Shown: positions 1,610 through 5,996 of the stretch, piece by piece
How the letters are laid out: each line of letters opens with the position of its first letter
How positions within the stretch are numbered: the stretch's first letter is position 1
Virus record (IMG/VR): IMGVR_UViG_2713896729_000002
Location: 1 to 5,996 of that record
Direction: 5' to 3' (one strand)
Length of the DNA stretch: 5,996 bases
DNA from: a virus
Lineage: Duplodnaviria > Heunggongvirae > Uroviricota > Caudoviricetes
Position numbers and translations under genes: made by a program
The notes under the pieces: model-generated
What the model saw: only the letters and a program-made list of their open reading frames with translations
The model's database searches: none
Told to the model about the DNA's origin: nothing

Positions 1610-1619
1610 NNNNNNNNNN
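1610..1619. other. Assembly gap (10 N)
   Basis: Run of exactly 10 n. Sequence character changes abruptly across it, from phage V coding sequence to LDR repeat. Confidence 0.95.
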
Positions 1620-1842
1620 ACTTCCACAAGTAAATATTGGCAACCCGAGCTGGAAGCCTCATCCAGAGCACTCATGAAATGACTGTAACAGCTGTTGAAA
1701 AACCGGAATGCACTCTTCATTGCAAACATTTCAGGGATGAAGTGAAGATGAATTGAGTCGTAGTATCCACACCAAGCCGGCGTTATCCGGTGAGGCGCAA
1801 TGTTGCGGGGGCTTTATCCCTGGTGGCATTGGTTGCTGGAAA

Positions 1843-1908
1843 GAGAAAACCCCCGCACGTTGAGAGGTACAACCTGACAACAGAACGGGGGCTAATCTTG
1901 AACCAGAA
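1843..1908 (-). ncRNA. rdl: Rdl-like cis-antisense RNA (antitoxin of Ldr), copy 1; coordinates approximate
   Basis: In characterised ldr/rdl loci the ~66-nt Rdl RNA lies about 50-115 nt upstream of the ldr ATG on the opposite strand. At that position the minus strand has a hairpin (CCCCCG 1850-1855 pairing with CGGGGG 1886-1891) followed by a minus-strand U-tract (plus aagagaaaa 1841-1849), which fits an intrinsic terminator at the predicted 3' end. A weak minus-strand promoter-like TTGTAA-N17-TATTCT lies just upstream (plus ~1912-1940). Confidence 0.5.
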
Positions 1909-1956
1909 CAATTCAAGAATAGCCGCAAAATGTTGTCATTACAACAAGGCGGCTAT

Positions 1957-2064
1957 ATGACGCTCGCGCAGTTTGCCATGATTTTCTGGGACGACCTGGC
2001 AGCACCGATCCTGGCGGGAATTATTACCGCAGCGATTGTCGGCTGGTGGCGTAACCGGAAGTAA
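1957..2064 (+). CDS. ldr: Ldr-family type I toxin peptide, 35 aa (MTLAQFAMIFWDDLAAPILAGIITAAIVGWWRNRK)
   Basis: ATG at 1957, TAA at 2062-2064. It is a small hydrophobic peptide with a basic C-terminus (WWRNRK), recognised as the E. coli LdrA-D family. It is not in the supplied ORF track because it is too short. Confidence 0.8.
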   Translation: MTLAQFAMIFWDDLAAPILAGIITAAIVGWWRNRK

Positions 2065-2113
2065 GGTGAAAACGGGCGTCAGGCTGCCGTGATGGCAATA
2101 TGCGCCCGAAACC

Positions 2114-4373: not shown

Positions 4374-4658
4374 TTATGCTGATTCGTCAATATCGAGACG
4401 GGCGAGGAAATTGCGAATTCCTTCACGTGACAAAAATTGCGCGACTTTTTCCTGCTCAATGTCTGTCATATTATCTATCGCGTTGATGATTTGTCGATAC
4501 GCCGGGGCGCGTGCTCCAGGAGCGTATTCAGCAATTCTCTCTTCAGCTTCCATCAACATTGGTGTGTTATGGAAGGCTGGCGTGTTCTGAATAAACTCGC
4601 AAACTTGCGTATCGACCAGAATAAGTCTGGCACGACCGCCTTTCACGCCGGGAAATTT
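4374..4658 (-). pseudogene. yfeD: yfeD-like small DNA-binding protein (DUF1323), C-terminal ~94 codons; reading frame interrupted at 4658/4659 by an IS insertion
   Basis: Minus-strand frame is open from the stop at 4374-4376 up to 4658 (...KFPGVKGGRARLILVDTQVCEF...DIDESA). The track ORF 4374..4646 starts at GTG, which is an internal Val of the native protein as I recall it (...GWKTEKFPGVKGG...). Convergent placement next to gltX matches E. coli synteny. The N-terminal part continues on the far side of the IS (5985-5996 encodes WKTE on the minus strand, in frame). Confidence 0.6.
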
Positions 4659-4664
4659 AATGAG

Positions 4665-4676
4665 ATGGTCACTCCC
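4665..4676. repeat. Left subterminal inverted repeat of the IS (ATGGTCACTCCC)
   Basis: Exact reverse complement of 5970-5981. Confidence 0.7.
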
Positions 4677-4724
4677 TCCTTCCCGGTACTATGCTGAGGA
4701 CAGGCTTTCATTCGGAGAACTATC

Positions 4725-5729
4725 ATGGAAAACATTGCGCTCATTGGTATCGATCTGGGTAAAAACTCTTTCCATATTCATTGCCAGGATCGTCGCGGGA
4801 AGGCTGTTTACCGTAAAAAATTTACCCGGCCAAAGTTGATCGAATTTTTGGCGACATGCCCCGCTACAACCATCGCAATGGAAGCCTGTGGCGGTTCTCA
4901 CTTTATGGCACGCAAGTTGGAAGAGTTGGGGCATTCCCCAAAGCTGATATCACCACAATTTGTCCGCCCGTTCGTTAAAAGCAATAAAAACGACTTTGTC
5001 GACGCCGAAGCTATTTGTGAAGCTGCATCGCGTCCGTCTATGCGTTTTGTGCAGCCCAGAACGGAATCTCAGCAGGCAATGCGGGCTCTGCATCGTGTCC
5101 GTGAATCCCTGGTTCAGGATAAGGTAAAAACAACCAATCAAATGCATGCTTTTCTGCTGGAATTTGGCATTAGCGTTCCCCGAGGAGCTGCCGTTATTAG
5201 CCGACTGAGTACCATTCTTGAGGATAATAGTTTGCCTCTTTACCTCAGCCAGTTATTGCTGAAATTACAACAGCATTATCACTATCTTGTTGAGCAGATT
5301 AAAGATTTGGAATCCCAGTTGAAACGAAAGTTGGACGAAGATGAGGTTGGACAGCGCTTGCTGAGCATTCCCTGCGTCGGAACACTGACAGCGAGTACTA
5401 TTTCAACTGAGATTGGCGACGGGAAGCAGTACGCCAGCAGCCGTGACTTTGCGGCGGCAACAGGGCTTGTACCTCGGCAGTACAGCACGGGAGGTAGGAC
5501 GACATTGCTGGGAATTAGTAAGCGAGGTAATAAAAAGATCCGAACTTTGTTGGTTCAATGTGCCAGGGTATTCATACAAAAACTGGAACACCAGTCTGGC
5601 AAATTGGCCGATTGGGTCAGGGATTTACTGTGCCGGAAAAGCAACTTTGTCGTCACTTGTGCTCTGGCAAACAAGCTGGCCAGAATAGCCTGGGCCCTAA
5701 CGGCACGACAGCAAACTTATGTAGCATAA
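4725..5729 (+). CDS. IS110-family transposase / DEDD recombinase, 334 aa
   Basis: ORF 4725..5729 with GGAGA ribosome-binding site 7 nt upstream. N-terminal MENIALIGIDLGKNSF has the conserved RuvC-like catalytic Asp (DEDD_Tnp_IS110 type). The C-terminal region has the Transposase_20-type signature (IPCVGTLTASTISTEIGDGKQYASSRDFAAATGLVPRQYSTGG). Confidence 0.9.
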   Translation: MENIALIGIDLGKNSFHIHCQDRRGKAVYRKKFTRPKLIEFLATCPATTIAMEACGGSHFMARKLEELGHSPKLISPQFVRPFVKSNKNDFVDAEAICEAASRPSMRFVQPRTESQQAMRALHRVRESLVQDKVKTTNQMHAFLLEFGISVPRGAAVISRLSTILEDNSLPLYLSQLLLKLQQHYHYLVEQIKDLESQLKRKLDEDEVGQRLLSIPCVGTLTASTISTEIGDGKQYASSRDFAAATGLVPRQYSTGGRTTLLGISKRGNKKIRTLLVQCARVFIQKLEHQSGKLADWVRDLLCRKSNFVVTCALANKLARIAWALTARQQTYVA

Positions 5730-5969
5730 CGGCAGAAATACACCGGTTTAAAGAATTACTGATCTGGTTTTGCGAATACTGATATTGATGATACTAACGG
5801 CCCACCGGCCTGTTGAGGAACCTGTAAAACGGAAAGGCTCATTGAAGCCGTATATTTTCTGGAGGTTCATCAGGCGCGGAACTCATCAAGGCGCGGGAAT
5901 AAAATCCCATTCAGACGCCGGATAGATTCAAGCAAGCCAACTTGTCGTCAAAATCGGTGTTGCAAAAAC
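5730..5969 (+). ncRNA. Putative IS-encoded guide RNA (seekRNA / bridge-RNA-like) in the non-coding right end of the IS; boundaries unknown
   Basis: 240 bp between the transposase stop and the right inverted repeat has no ORF of 60 aa or more that lies wholly inside it. It contains AAAACGGAAA (5826-5835), the reverse complement of target flank TTTCCGTTTT, followed 2 nt later by CTCATT (5838-5843), the reverse complement of the IS left terminal hexamer AATGAG. It also has an imperfect direct repeat, CATCAGGCGCGGAA (5869-5882) and CATCAAGGCGCGGGAA (5885-5900). IS110/IS1111 elements are known to encode such RNAs in their long non-coding end. Confidence 0.35.
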
Positions 5970-5981
5970 GGGAGTGACCAT
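5970..5981. repeat. Right subterminal inverted repeat of the IS (GGGAGTGACCAT)
   Basis: Exact reverse complement of 4665-4676, 3 bp from the inferred right end. Confidence 0.7.
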
Positions 5982-5984
5982 AGA

Positions 5985-5996
5985 TTCCGTTTTCCA
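5985..5996 (-). pseudogene. yfeD: yfeD, 5'-proximal part resuming after the IS (continues beyond the window)
   Basis: Minus-strand codons at 5985-5996 read W-K-T-E, which joins in frame to KFPGVKGG at 4658 and downstream once 4659-5984 is removed. This matches the recalled native YfeD sequence ...REKGWKTEKFPGVKGGRARL... Confidence 0.5.

What the first reader, a model, noticed from the sequence alone, without database searches (positions are those of the whole stretch)
5730..5984. ORF-free 255-bp right end of the IS carries target-complementary and IS-end-complementary segments: candidate guide RNA for RNA-directed insertion
The segment 5826-5843 (AAAACGGAAAGGCTCATT) is the reverse complement of AATGAG + CC + TTTCCGTTTT, that is, the IS left terminal hexamer (4659-4664) joined to the target sequence at the right junction (5985-5993, plus the T at 4658 in the reconstructed native site). 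A 10-nt exact complement of the insertion target sitting inside the element's own non-coding end is what an RNA that base-pairs with the target would look like, as described for bridge RNA and seekRNA in IS110/IS1111 elements. An imperfect direct repeat (5869-5882 and 5885-5900) and several short GC stems suggest a structured RNA. The guide-RNA mechanism for this family is published; the specific RNA, its boundaries and its guide segments here are uncharacterised.
Basis: partly seen in the sequence, partly recalled or inferred. Interest (0 to 1): 0.8.

Follow-up and report, generated by a model that had tools for sequence, protein, structure and literature searches.

The report
IS4321 guide RNA (seekRNA/bridge RNA)
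The non-coding right end of this insertion sequence, which is the well-known IS4321 sitting in the E. coli yfeD gene, encodes the family's guide RNA that base-pairs with the insertion site, so the finding is correct but is one more example of a mechanism published in 2024.

Summary
5826-5835 (AAAACGGAAA) is an exact complement of the target's right half. The element (4658-5984) is IS4321, IS1111 group, 100% identical to plasmid copies and inserted in chromosomal yfeD.

The 10-nt match alone is weak (P about 0.03 by shuffling). Comparison with relatives makes it solid. In about 35 related elements the non-coding end is a conserved scaffold with two hypervariable blocks:
- Block 1 (5824-5835) is complementary to each element's right flank.
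- Block 2 (5850-5860) is identical to each element's left flank across the junction.
- Both co-vary with the target (0 of 20,000 permutations).

The stems around them show compensatory changes. A covariance model built from these relatives hits the experimentally validated ISEc11 seekRNA, whose two target matches fall at the same two positions.

It is the variable loop of a conserved hairpin. The segments that track the IS ends are CUCAU (5882-5886, left end) and AUAGA+UUC (5922-5929, right end plus flank).

The mechanism is published, and a published supplementary table already places IS4321's bridge RNA in the right end. The guide map given here was not found in print. Verdict: real feature, new member of a known kind, low to moderate interest.

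The parts
4658..5984 (+). IS4321, an IS1111-group member of the IS110 family, 1,327 bp, inserted in yfeD
   Evidence: 4659-5984 is 100% identical to plasmid copies annotated IS4321. The empty yfeD site was found. Length and circle junction come from PMC5001619.
4658..4664 (+). 7-nt left terminal extension TAATGAG. Positions 3-7 (ATGAG, 4660-4664) are the proposed pairing partner of the RNA left-end guide. TAAT also supplies most of the junction-promoter -10.
   Evidence: Conserved in nearly all of 60 related loci. Pairs with RNA NNCAU in 8 diverse elements.
4665..4676 (+). Left sub-terminal inverted repeat ATGGTCACTCCC
   Evidence: Exact 12-nt inverted repeat with 5970-5981.
4725..5729 (+). 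DEDD transposase gene (334 aa)
   Evidence: PF01548 (E 1e-20) and PF02371 (E 4e-20). NCBI names cluster members 'IS110 family RNA-guided transposase'.
5762..5935 (+). Predicted long guide RNA (scaffold plus both modules). The ends are inferred, not measured.
   Evidence: Conservation starts sharply at CTGGTTTTGC. The covariance model spans 5762-5984 at 227 bits. Published long seekRNAs are 148-172 nt.
5808..5875 (+). Target-binding module: closing stem 5808-5816/5867-5875, inner CCU/AGG stem 5821-5823/5862-5865, and a large internal loop carrying both target guides. This is the predicted short seekRNA core.
   Evidence: 6 of 9 closing-stem pairs show compensatory changes. Fold -22.7 kcal/mol, z -2.2.
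5824..5835 (+). Hypervariable block 1, the top-strand target guide. AAAACGGAAA (5826-5835) pairs with TTTCCGTTTT, the right half of the target plus one T across the junction.
   Evidence: 10/10 match to yfeD and to the Tn21-type inverted-repeat target. Co-varies with the right flank in 20 distinct guide pairs, 0/20,000 permutations. Aligns with the ISEc11 top-strand match ACAGUAUUUU.
5836..5849 (+). Central hairpin GGCUCAUUGAAGCC separating the two target guides.
   Evidence: The GGC/GCC stem is conserved with 2 compensatory changes. The loop varies (CTCTCT, CTCACT, CTCCTT, TCTCGA and others) while the left end stays TAATGAG.
5851..5859 (+). Hypervariable block 2, the bottom-strand target guide UAUAUUUUC. 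It is identical to the top strand of the left half of the target and runs across the junction.
   Evidence: Matches 7-8 contiguous nt of canonical targets (TATTTTC, ATATTTTC) but only TTTTC in the true yfeD site. Co-varies with the left flank, 0/20,000 permutations. Aligns with the ISEc11 bottom-strand match GUGAAAAUA.
5882..5886 (+). Proposed left-end (donor) guide CUCAU, complementary to ATGAG at 4660-4664
   Evidence: In 8 diverse IS1111 elements RNA NNCAU pairs with left-end ATGNN. The position-6 pair is A:U, G:C or T:A in 7 of 8. In L064 the left end is ATGAA and the RNA is UUCAU. It overlaps an invariant predicted stem 5787-5791/5883-5887, which cannot be tested by co-variation.
5890..5919 (+). 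Hairpin of the donor-side module (GGCGCGGGA...UCCC...CGCC)
   Evidence: All 4 apical pairs show compensatory changes, 18 of 32 sequences at one pair.
5922..5929 (+). Proposed right-end (donor) guide AUAGA, identical to the last 5 nt of the IS (5980-5984), followed by UUC, identical to the first 3 flank nt (5985-5987)
   Evidence: The RNA pentamer equals the right-end pentamer in 9 of 9 elements, with 6 different pentamers. The next 1-4 RNA nt match the start of the right flank (2 or more in 8 of the 9).
5960..5965 (+). TTGCAA, the -35 of the promoter formed when the ends are joined in the circle. After a 17-nt spacer the -10 is GATAAT (5983-5984 plus 4658-4661).
   Evidence: Read from the sequence. 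Junction AGATAATGAG and the promoter boxes are reported in PMC5001619. TTGCAAAAA is invariant in relatives.
5970..5984 (+). Right sub-terminal inverted repeat GGGAGTGACCAT plus the 3-nt terminal extension AGA
5985..5993 (+). Right half of the yfeD target (TTCCGTTTT), which mimics the Tn21-family inverted repeat

Best explanation
5730-5984 is the 3' non-coding region of IS4321 and encodes, on the + strand, the element's guide RNA (seekRNA / IS1111-type bridge RNA).

Shown here from sequence:
- The RNA scaffold is conserved and folds into two modules, each built as guide, hairpin, guide.
- In the target module, 5826-5835 (AAAACGGAAA) is complementary to the top strand of the right half of the target (TTTCCGTTTT).
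- Also in the target module, 5851-5859 (UAUAUUUUC) is identical to the top strand of the left half and so would pair with the bottom strand. The two footprints overlap at the insertion point.
- In the donor module, CUCAU (5882-5886) is complementary to the left end (ATGAG).
- Also in the donor module, AUAGA-UUC (5922-5929) matches the right end plus the first flank bases.

Inferred from published work on relatives:
- The excised circle joins the ends and creates a promoter (TTGCAA, 17 nt, GATAAT).
- That promoter drives the transposase gene and, by read-through, this RNA, which is then trimmed.
- The RNA binds the DEDD transposase and aligns target and donor DNA for strand exchange without target duplication.

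Applied to this copy: yfeD was hit because its sequence copies the right half of the usual target, the 38-bp inverted repeat of Tn21-family transposons. It matches the first guide 10 of 10 and the second guide only partly.
For: Identity of the element:
- IS4321 at 100% identity.
- DEDD transposase domains PF01548 and PF02371.
- 12-nt sub-terminal inverted repeats with 7-nt and 3-nt extensions.
- Empty yfeD site and intact Tn21 inverted repeat both found.

Target guides:
- The non-coding-region alignment of about 35 distinct relatives (62-98% protein identity) shows a conserved scaffold with two hypervariable blocks.
- Longest in-register match of block 1 to its own right flank averages 7.7 nt, against 3.6 nt for other elements' flanks.
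- Block 2 to its own left flank averages 7.3 nt against 4.2 nt.
- In both cases 0 of 20,000 permutations reach the observed sum. This also holds when the shared T-run positions are left out.

Structure:
- 96.7% of cells are paired and 15 pairs carry compensatory changes, with 0 of 500 shuffles as high. Structures slid by 1-3 columns collapse to 29-47% paired.
- Many G-U variants fit a + strand RNA.

Homology:
- Covariance model R1 hits the ISEc11 3' non-coding region (E 5.6e-7). ISEc11's sequences at the two block positions match its published target GTGAAAATACTGT on the top and bottom strands.

Donor guides.

Literature:
- The ISEc11 non-coding-region RNA co-purifies with its transposase, is required in cis or in trans, and is reprogrammable. 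The top-strand match lies 5' of the bottom-strand match.
- IS4321 circle junction and promoter.
- Durrant et al. list IS4321 with 'RE'.
Against: - No transcript, RNA ends or protein binding could be examined for IS4321 itself.
- No + strand promoter-like site lies in 5500-5996, so expression of the integrated copy depends on read-through or on circle formation.
- Rfam 15 has no family matching this region.
- The 10-nt match alone is only P about 0.03.
- The donor-guide assignments rest on 8-9 elements. The left-end guide overlaps an invariant predicted stem (5787-5791/5883-5887).
- In ISEc11 the 82-nt short seekRNA, which corresponds to the target module only, was sufficient in a mini-IS assay. 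The donor module may therefore be dispensable or may work differently.
- The yfeD insertion is one T short of what the standard reaction predicts.
Confidence: 0.9

Rival explanations
1. The guide acts as DNA, not RNA. Single-stranded or melted DNA of the non-coding end would pair with the target and the ends, as the sub-terminal guide sequences of IS200/IS605 elements do.
For: Sequence co-variation cannot by itself tell an RNA guide from a DNA guide. No promoter-like site lies inside the region.
Against: - The compensatory changes include many G-U pairs, which would be A-C mismatches on the other strand and are less stable in DNA.
- In the homologous ISEc11 region the active species is RNase-sensitive, co-purifies with the transposase, and works when transcribed in trans from a T7 promoter.
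- The transposase is a DEDD/RuvC-type enzyme, not an HUH enzyme.
Confidence: 0.04
2. The 10-nt match is coincidence. The region would be conserved for other reasons, such as transposase binding sites, the junction-promoter -35, or regulation of the transposase mRNA 3' end.
For: The match alone has P about 0.03 in an A/T-rich context. Part of the region (5960-5984) does serve as promoter -35 and inverted repeat.
Against: The matching block is one of the two least conserved blocks, and it changes together with the target in 20 distinct guide pairs. ISEc11 shows the same at the homologous position.
Confidence: 0.02
3. On the - strand, the hairpin 5849-5836 followed by TTTCCGTTTT is an intrinsic terminator that shields the element from transcription entering from the right.
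For: The consensus scan lists it as terminator-like, with 5 pairs and a T-rich tail. The - strand of 5806-5877 also folds well (z -3.1).
Against: The stem has only 5 pairs (3 G-C). The T-rich tail is the hypervariable block that tracks each element's target and is not T-rich in several relatives, for example GGTCAGGAAT in L034 and AGGTTAACG in L073 and L080. The covariance model scores the - strand at only 12.7 bits over part of the model.
Confidence: 0.02
4. The region encodes a small protein, the 51-aa TTG ORF at 5770-5925.
For: The ORF exists.
Against: The homologous frame carries stops or frameshifts in every relative outside IS4321/IS5075. Single-base indels are frequent in the alignment.
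Confidence: 0.01

Closest known systems
seekRNA of ISEc11 and other IS1111-family elements (Siddiquee, Pong, Hall, Ataide 2024, PMC11187229)
   Same: - Same element type: DEDD transposase, sub-terminal inverted repeats, long 3' non-coding region.
- Same RNA position and strand.
- Same order, with the top-strand match 5' of the bottom-strand match, separated by a hairpin inside a stem-closed loop, and footprints overlapping at the insertion point.
- The region is detectably homologous (covariance model hit E 5.6e-7, guides at the same model positions).
   Different: - The transposases are only about 37% identical (identity matrix in the paper's supplement).
- The guides read a different target, the Tn21-family inverted repeat.
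- IS4321's RNA has not been tested experimentally. The paper reports only its target logo.
IS621 bridge RNA (Durrant et al. 2024, PMC11208160; Hiraizumi et al. 2024 and 2026)
   Same: - One RNA with a target-binding and a donor-binding part, each reading both strands.
- A junction promoter in the circle.
- Short guide extensions that read the partner DNA (handshake guides), which resemble the UUC extension of the right-end guide here.
   Different: - In IS621 the RNA is in the left end, upstream of the recombinase gene, and the guide order is reversed.
- IS621 has a 2-nt CT core at both boundaries. Here only a single T is shared between the left end and the right flank.
- The sub-terminal inverted repeats are long here (12 nt) and 2-3 nt in IS621.
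- The donor-reading bases here lie in a multi-branch region, as Durrant et al. noted for IS1111 elements.
IS4321/IS5075 as described by Partridge and Hall 2003 (cited; paper not held)
   Same: It is the same element, with the same ends, the same target (the 38-bp inverted repeat of Tn21-family transposons) and the same circle junction.
   Different: That work predates the RNA mechanism. The copy here sits at a chromosomal look-alike site in yfeD rather than in a transposon end.
Sub-terminal DNA guide sequences of IS200/IS605 elements
   Same: A short sequence inside the element pairs with the target or cleavage site and sets insertion specificity.
   Different: There the guide is single-stranded DNA read by an HUH transposase. 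Here the enzyme is a DEDD type, and the homologous guide is an RNA in ISEc11.

Membership tests
IS1111 group of the IS110 family (insertion sequence) | DEDD (RuvC-like) transposase with the IS110 C-terminal domain | tested here: met
   PF01548 E 1.3e-20 and PF02371 E 4.4e-20
IS1111 group of the IS110 family (insertion sequence) | Sub-terminal inverted repeats of 7-17 bp with short terminal extensions (7 nt on the left, 3 nt on the right) | tested here: met
   ATGGTCACTCCC / GGGAGTGACCAT, with TAATGAG on the left and AGA on the right
IS1111 group of the IS110 family (insertion sequence) | Long non-coding region downstream of the transposase gene | tested here: met
   255 nt at 5730-5984, against 67 nt on the left
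IS1111 group of the IS110 family (insertion sequence) | Site- and orientation-specific insertion without target duplication | tested here: met
   24 IS4321/IS5075 copies at Tn21-type inverted repeats or look-alikes, all in one register. Empty sites were compared. In yfeD the product is one T short.
IS1111 group of the IS110 family (insertion sequence) | Circular intermediate whose junction forms a promoter | tested here: inconclusive
   The sequence gives TTGCAA, 17 nt, GATAAT across the joined ends. Circles and the junction were observed experimentally for IS4321 in PMC5001619. This copy was not tested.
IS1111-type seekRNA / bridge RNA | Homology to an experimentally validated member | tested here: met
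   Model R1 hits the ISEc11 3' non-coding region at full length, 30.2 bits, E 5.6e-7, and 14 of 15 diverse IS1111 loci
IS1111-type seekRNA / bridge RNA | Two target matches, the top-strand match 5' of the bottom-strand match, overlapping at the insertion point | tested here: met
   5826-5835 and 5851-5859. Same positions as the ISEc11 matches. The order is as stated in PMC11187229.
IS1111-type seekRNA / bridge RNA | Guides change together with the target in related elements (natural reprogramming) | tested here: met
   20 distinct guide pairs, 0 of 20,000 permutations for each guide
IS1111-type seekRNA / bridge RNA | Conserved secondary structure that presents the guides in a loop | tested here: met
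   15 pairs with compensatory changes, 0 of 500 shuffles as high, and slid controls collapse
IS1111-type seekRNA / bridge RNA | Donor-binding bases that track the IS ends | tested here: met
   The right-end pentamer equals the RNA pentamer in 9 of 9 elements with 6 variants. Left-end ATGNN pairs with RNA NNCAU, with 3 pair types at position 6. The sample is small.
IS1111-type seekRNA / bridge RNA | The RNA is made, binds the transposase and is required for circle formation and insertion | not testable with these tools
   Shown for ISEc11, ISKpn4, ISPa11 and ISPst6, not for IS4321
IS110-type bridge RNA (IS621-like) | RNA encoded in the left end upstream of the recombinase gene, with the bottom-strand match 5' of the top-strand match | tested here: not met
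   Here the RNA is in the right end and the order is reversed. It works like an IS621 bridge RNA but is not of that subtype.
Rfam curated RNA families | Match to any Rfam 15 model | tested here: not met
   No hit in 5730-5984 even at E up to 1. No curated family appears to cover this RNA.

The most novel reading that the evidence does not exclude
The most novel reading not excluded has three parts.

1. IS4321's RNA is a symmetric two-module bridge, each module being a top-strand guide, a hairpin and a bottom-strand guide.
2. The right-end guide runs 1-4 nt into the right flank. The RNA would then read the integrated junctions, each junction held by one guide from each module, and not only the circle junction. 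This would explain why flanking target bases are needed for excision in IS1111 elements.
3. The two target half-sites are measured independently from their own guide duplexes. That would explain why the yfeD site, which has one extra T between the half-sites, lost exactly one T on insertion.
Probability: 0.3. Interest if true: 0.45.

Novelty: new member of a known kind. Interest (0 to 1): 0.3.

Why it matters
IS4321 and IS5075 are among the most common insertion sequences on multiresistance plasmids. More than 5,000 plasmid records match. They insert into the ends of Tn21-family transposons.

A base-level map of their guides does three things:
- It explains the specificity known since 2003.
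- It predicts look-alike chromosomal sites such as yfeD, which is occupied in 171 of 5,426 complete E. coli genomes.
- It gives a naturally active, very widespread IS1111-type system that could be reprogrammed.

It adds no new principle. The mechanism was published in 2024.

Tried and rejected
- Rfam 15 scan of the window: no family in the region.
- Partridge and Hall 2003 is not in the held library.
- A tblastn of the IS4321 transposase against plasmids was swamped by 5,000 IS4321/IS5075 copies and gave no diversity. The ISEc11 protein was used instead to sample diverse IS1111 elements.
- A regex extraction of the guide blocks missed 10 loci and was replaced by alignment columns.
- A broad term search of the Durrant supplements returned mostly code files and added nothing.
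- Rejected: CTCATT 5838-5843 as a donor guide. The loop varies while the left end is constant, and it is absent in ISEc11 and other IS1111 elements.
- Rejected: the 51-aa ORF.
- Rejected: the - strand terminator reading.
- Left open: whether the invariant predicted stem 5787-5791/5883-5887 forms and competes with left-end pairing. In ISEc11 only 3 of its 5 pairs survive, while the left-end pairing is fully compensated.
- Left open: the outer stem 5768-5782/5954-5967 shows little co-variation and overlaps the -35 box, so it may reflect DNA-level conservation.

Full report
**1. Observation**

Bases 5826-5843 read AAAACGGAAAGGCTCATT, the reverse complement of AATGAG-CC-TTTCCGTTTT. The repeat finder independently reports 5823-5834 against 5985-5996 as a 12-nt inverted repeat, 92% complementary. 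The reconstructed target is real. Joining the two flanks gives a sequence found at 100% identity over 300 nt in uninterrupted yfeD.

A match of 10 nt or more between the non-coding region and the 26-nt empty site occurs in about 3% of dinucleotide shuffles. A given hexamer such as CTCATT occurs somewhere in about 5%. Neither match is compelling alone. 'ORF-free' is not literal, because a 51-aa TTG ORF lies at 5770-5925. It is broken in every relative outside IS4321/IS5075.

**2. What the element is**

- 4659-5984 is 100% identical to plasmid copies annotated IS4321. IS5075 is 93.5% identical in DNA and 98.2% in protein.
- The ORF 4725-5729 carries PF01548 and PF02371. NCBI already names cluster members 'IS110 family RNA-guided transposase'.
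- The ends are 12-nt sub-terminal inverted repeats (4665-4676 and 5970-5981), with TAATGAG outside on the left and AGA on the right.
- IS4321 is 1,327 bp. Its circle junction AGA-T-AATGAG takes the T from the left and forms a promoter (PMC5001619). In the window this reads TTGCAA (5960-5965), 17 nt, GATAAT.
- The usual target is the 38-bp inverted repeat of Tn21-family transposons. The intact repeat (CTTAGCGTGCTTTATTTTCCGTTTTCTGAGACGACCCC) is found at 99% identity or more in about 2,600 plasmid records.
- The yfeD site shares TTTCCGTTTT with that repeat. The yfeD::IS4321 left junction is present in 171 of 5,426 complete E. coli genomes.

**3. Target guides**

Eighty related loci were fetched, with transposases 62-100% identical. 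Their non-coding regions align well from CTGGTTTTGC to the end, except for two hypervariable blocks on either side of a conserved hairpin (GGCTCNNTGAAGCC):
- Block 1 corresponds to 5824-5835. Its reverse complement matches each element's own right flank. IS4321 gives TTTCCGTTTT. The L045 group gives TTTTGTTTC against flank TTTGTTTC. L073 gives TTAACCTTT. L081 gives TTTATGGAGC against flank TTTATGGATC.
- Block 2 corresponds to 5850-5860. It is identical to each element's left flank and runs on across the junction. L045 gives GGGAGTTTT. L054 gives GGGGCTTTT. L071 gives GGGCGTTTT.

Over 20 distinct guide pairs:

| Guide | Mean longest match, own target | Mean longest match, other elements' targets | Permutations reaching the observed sum |
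|---|---|---|---|
| Block 1 | 7.7 nt | 3.6 nt | 0 of 20,000 |
| Block 2 | 7.3 nt | 4.2 nt | 0 of 20,000 |

The result holds when only the positions furthest from the shared T-run are scored.

Among 24 IS4321/IS5075 copies, block 1 matches 9-10 of 10 nt at nearly every site, whereas block 2 matches 4-8 contiguous nt. The right half of the target therefore seems to dominate site choice. The yfeD site fits this pattern: 10 of 10 for block 1, and only TTTTC contiguous for block 2.

**4. Structure**

The consensus fold of 32 distinct sequences has 45 pairs, 15 of them with compensatory changes.
- The stem closing the target module (5808-5816/5867-5875) has 6 of 9 co-varying pairs.
- The apical stem of the downstream hairpin (5895-5898/5905-5908) has 4 of 4.
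- 96.7% of cells pair, against 29-47% when the partners are slid by 1-3 columns. No shuffle of 500 reaches any of the five observed measures.
- Frequent G-U variants fit a + strand RNA.
- The target module folds at -22.7 kcal/mol (z -2.2).

**5. Link to an experimentally validated RNA**

A covariance model built from these sequences (R1) was run over an ISEc11 copy fetched through its published protein sequence. It matched the ISEc11 3' non-coding region at full length (30.2 bits, E 5.6e-7). At the model positions of blocks 1 and 2, ISEc11 has ACAGUAUUUU and GUGAAAAUA. These are the complement and the identical copy of its published target GTGAAAATACTGT.

For ISEc11, the RNA from this region co-purifies with the transposase, is required in cis or in trans, and has been reprogrammed. 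The top-strand match lies 5' of the bottom-strand match. IS4321's 5826-5835 is therefore the homologue of a validated top-strand guide. [quoted passage not shown]

**6. IS-end segments**

In relatives the loop reads CTCTCT, CTCACT, CTCCTT, TCTCGA and others, while the left end stays TAATGAG. ISEc11 and other IS1111 elements have no such complement there. That part of the finding is best read as coincidence.

Two other conserved segments do track the ends:
- **Left-end guide.** RNA NNCAU (CUCAU, 5882-5886) is complementary to positions 3-7 of the left extension (ATGNN). Across IS4321, L088, L086, L093, ISEc11, L087, L089 and L084, the pair at position 6 is A:U, G:C or T:A in 7 of 8. L064 has left end ATGAA with RNA UUCAU.
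- **Right-end guide.** The RNA pentamer after GGA/GAA (AUAGA, 5922-5926) equals the last five bases of the element in 9 of 9 cases. Six different pentamers occur: ATAGA, ACATA, ATCTA, ATACA, ACACA and ATATA. The next 1-4 RNA bases match the start of the right flank (2 or more in 8 of the 9). In IS4321 these are UUC against TTC; in L084, GAGC; in L093, UGC.

This gives a second module of guide, hairpin, guide. It fits Durrant et al.'s remark that IS1111 donor-binding bases lie in a multi-loop, and the flank extension resembles the handshake guides of IS621.

Caveats:
- The sample is small.
- CUCAU overlaps an invariant predicted stem (5787-5791/5883-5887) that co-variation cannot test.
- The 82-nt short ISEc11 RNA, which corresponds to the target module only, sufficed in a mini-IS assay.

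**7. Mechanism**

Shown here: the conserved scaffold, the two target guides and their co-variation, the two end-tracking segments, and the homology to ISEc11.

Inferred from the family: the RNA is transcribed from the junction promoter through the transposase gene, since no + strand promoter-like site lies in 5500-5996. It is then trimmed to long and short forms and loaded on the DEDD transposase. There it aligns the target with the joined ends for strand exchange.

**8. An oddity**

The canonical empty site has 4 T and the occupied site has 3+2, as expected for a 1,327-bp element that includes one T. Empty yfeD has 5 T, and the occupied site again has 3+2. One T was therefore lost. Either the two half-sites are measured independently and the extra T was dropped, or the T-run slipped later. 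I could not tell which.

**9. Novelty**

The mechanism and IS4321's target and circle are published. A supplementary table of Durrant et al. lists IS4321 with 'RE' and 'IS1111'. I found no published base-level map of IS4321's guides, and Rfam has no model for this RNA. This is a new member of a known kind.

Noticed in passing
window 4650-4664 and 5980-5990; L082 241-262: The yfeD insertion is one T short. Empty yfeD has GGGAAATTTTTCCG (5 T), while the occupied site has 3 T on the left and 2 T on the right. One of the left T belongs to the 1,327-bp IS. The canonical Tn21 inverted-repeat target has 4 T and gains exactly the expected T.
   Followed up: partly
window 4374-4657 and 5985-5996 (yfeD, - strand): The same yfeD::IS4321 left junction is present in 171 of 5,426 complete E. 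coli genomes. I did not determine whether this reflects one ancestral event or repeated hits.
   Followed up: partly
window 1610-1619 and 2639-2648: Two runs of 10 N split the window into three pieces: phage-tail-like ORFs before 1610, a duplicated block between the runs, and the gltX region after 2648. The window looks like a scaffold of separate contigs rather than one native stretch. The phage-like ORFs were not analysed.
   Followed up: no
window 1620-2100 and 2155-2638: Two near-identical copies, about 480 bp each, of a type I toxin-antitoxin locus. Rfam rdlD antitoxin hits lie at 1844-1909 and 2379-2444 on the - strand (86 and 91 bits), with weak sok-like hits on the + strand.
   Followed up: no
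window 5869-5882 and 5885-5900: The imperfect direct repeat ATCA(A)GGCGCGG(G)AA is conserved across relatives. The first copy is the end of the target-module stem plus the linker. The second is the 5' strand of the donor-side hairpin. Both could pair with CGCC at 5915-5918, so alternative folds are possible. This was not tested.
   Followed up: no
L054, L061, L065, L067, L069, L071, L074 (flanks of the IS in each): Many relatives with 64-70% identical transposases sit between a G+C-rich hairpin and its T-run, which look like intrinsic terminators. Their block 2 matches the 3' arm of the hairpin plus the T-run, and their block 1 matches the T-run plus the downstream bases.
   Followed up: partly
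L044, L050, L055 (left ends): Three Xenorhabdus/Photorhabdus relatives have ATACAAG instead of TAATGAG before the left inverted repeat. It is preceded by the same sequence, AAACC(A/C)GATTAAAG, in all three. Their left flanks do not match block 2. This may be a variant or hybrid left end, or insertion into another repeat.
   Followed up: no
window 5836-5849 with 5826-5835, - strand: Read on the - strand, the central hairpin plus the guide block scores as an intrinsic-terminator-like site. It is probably a by-product of an A-rich guide lying next to a hairpin.
   Followed up: partly
L096 1889-2114 (- strand): A second IS1111-type element lies tail to tail with the one that was fetched. It gave the best covariance-model score outside the IS4321 clade (51 bits).
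   Followed up: no
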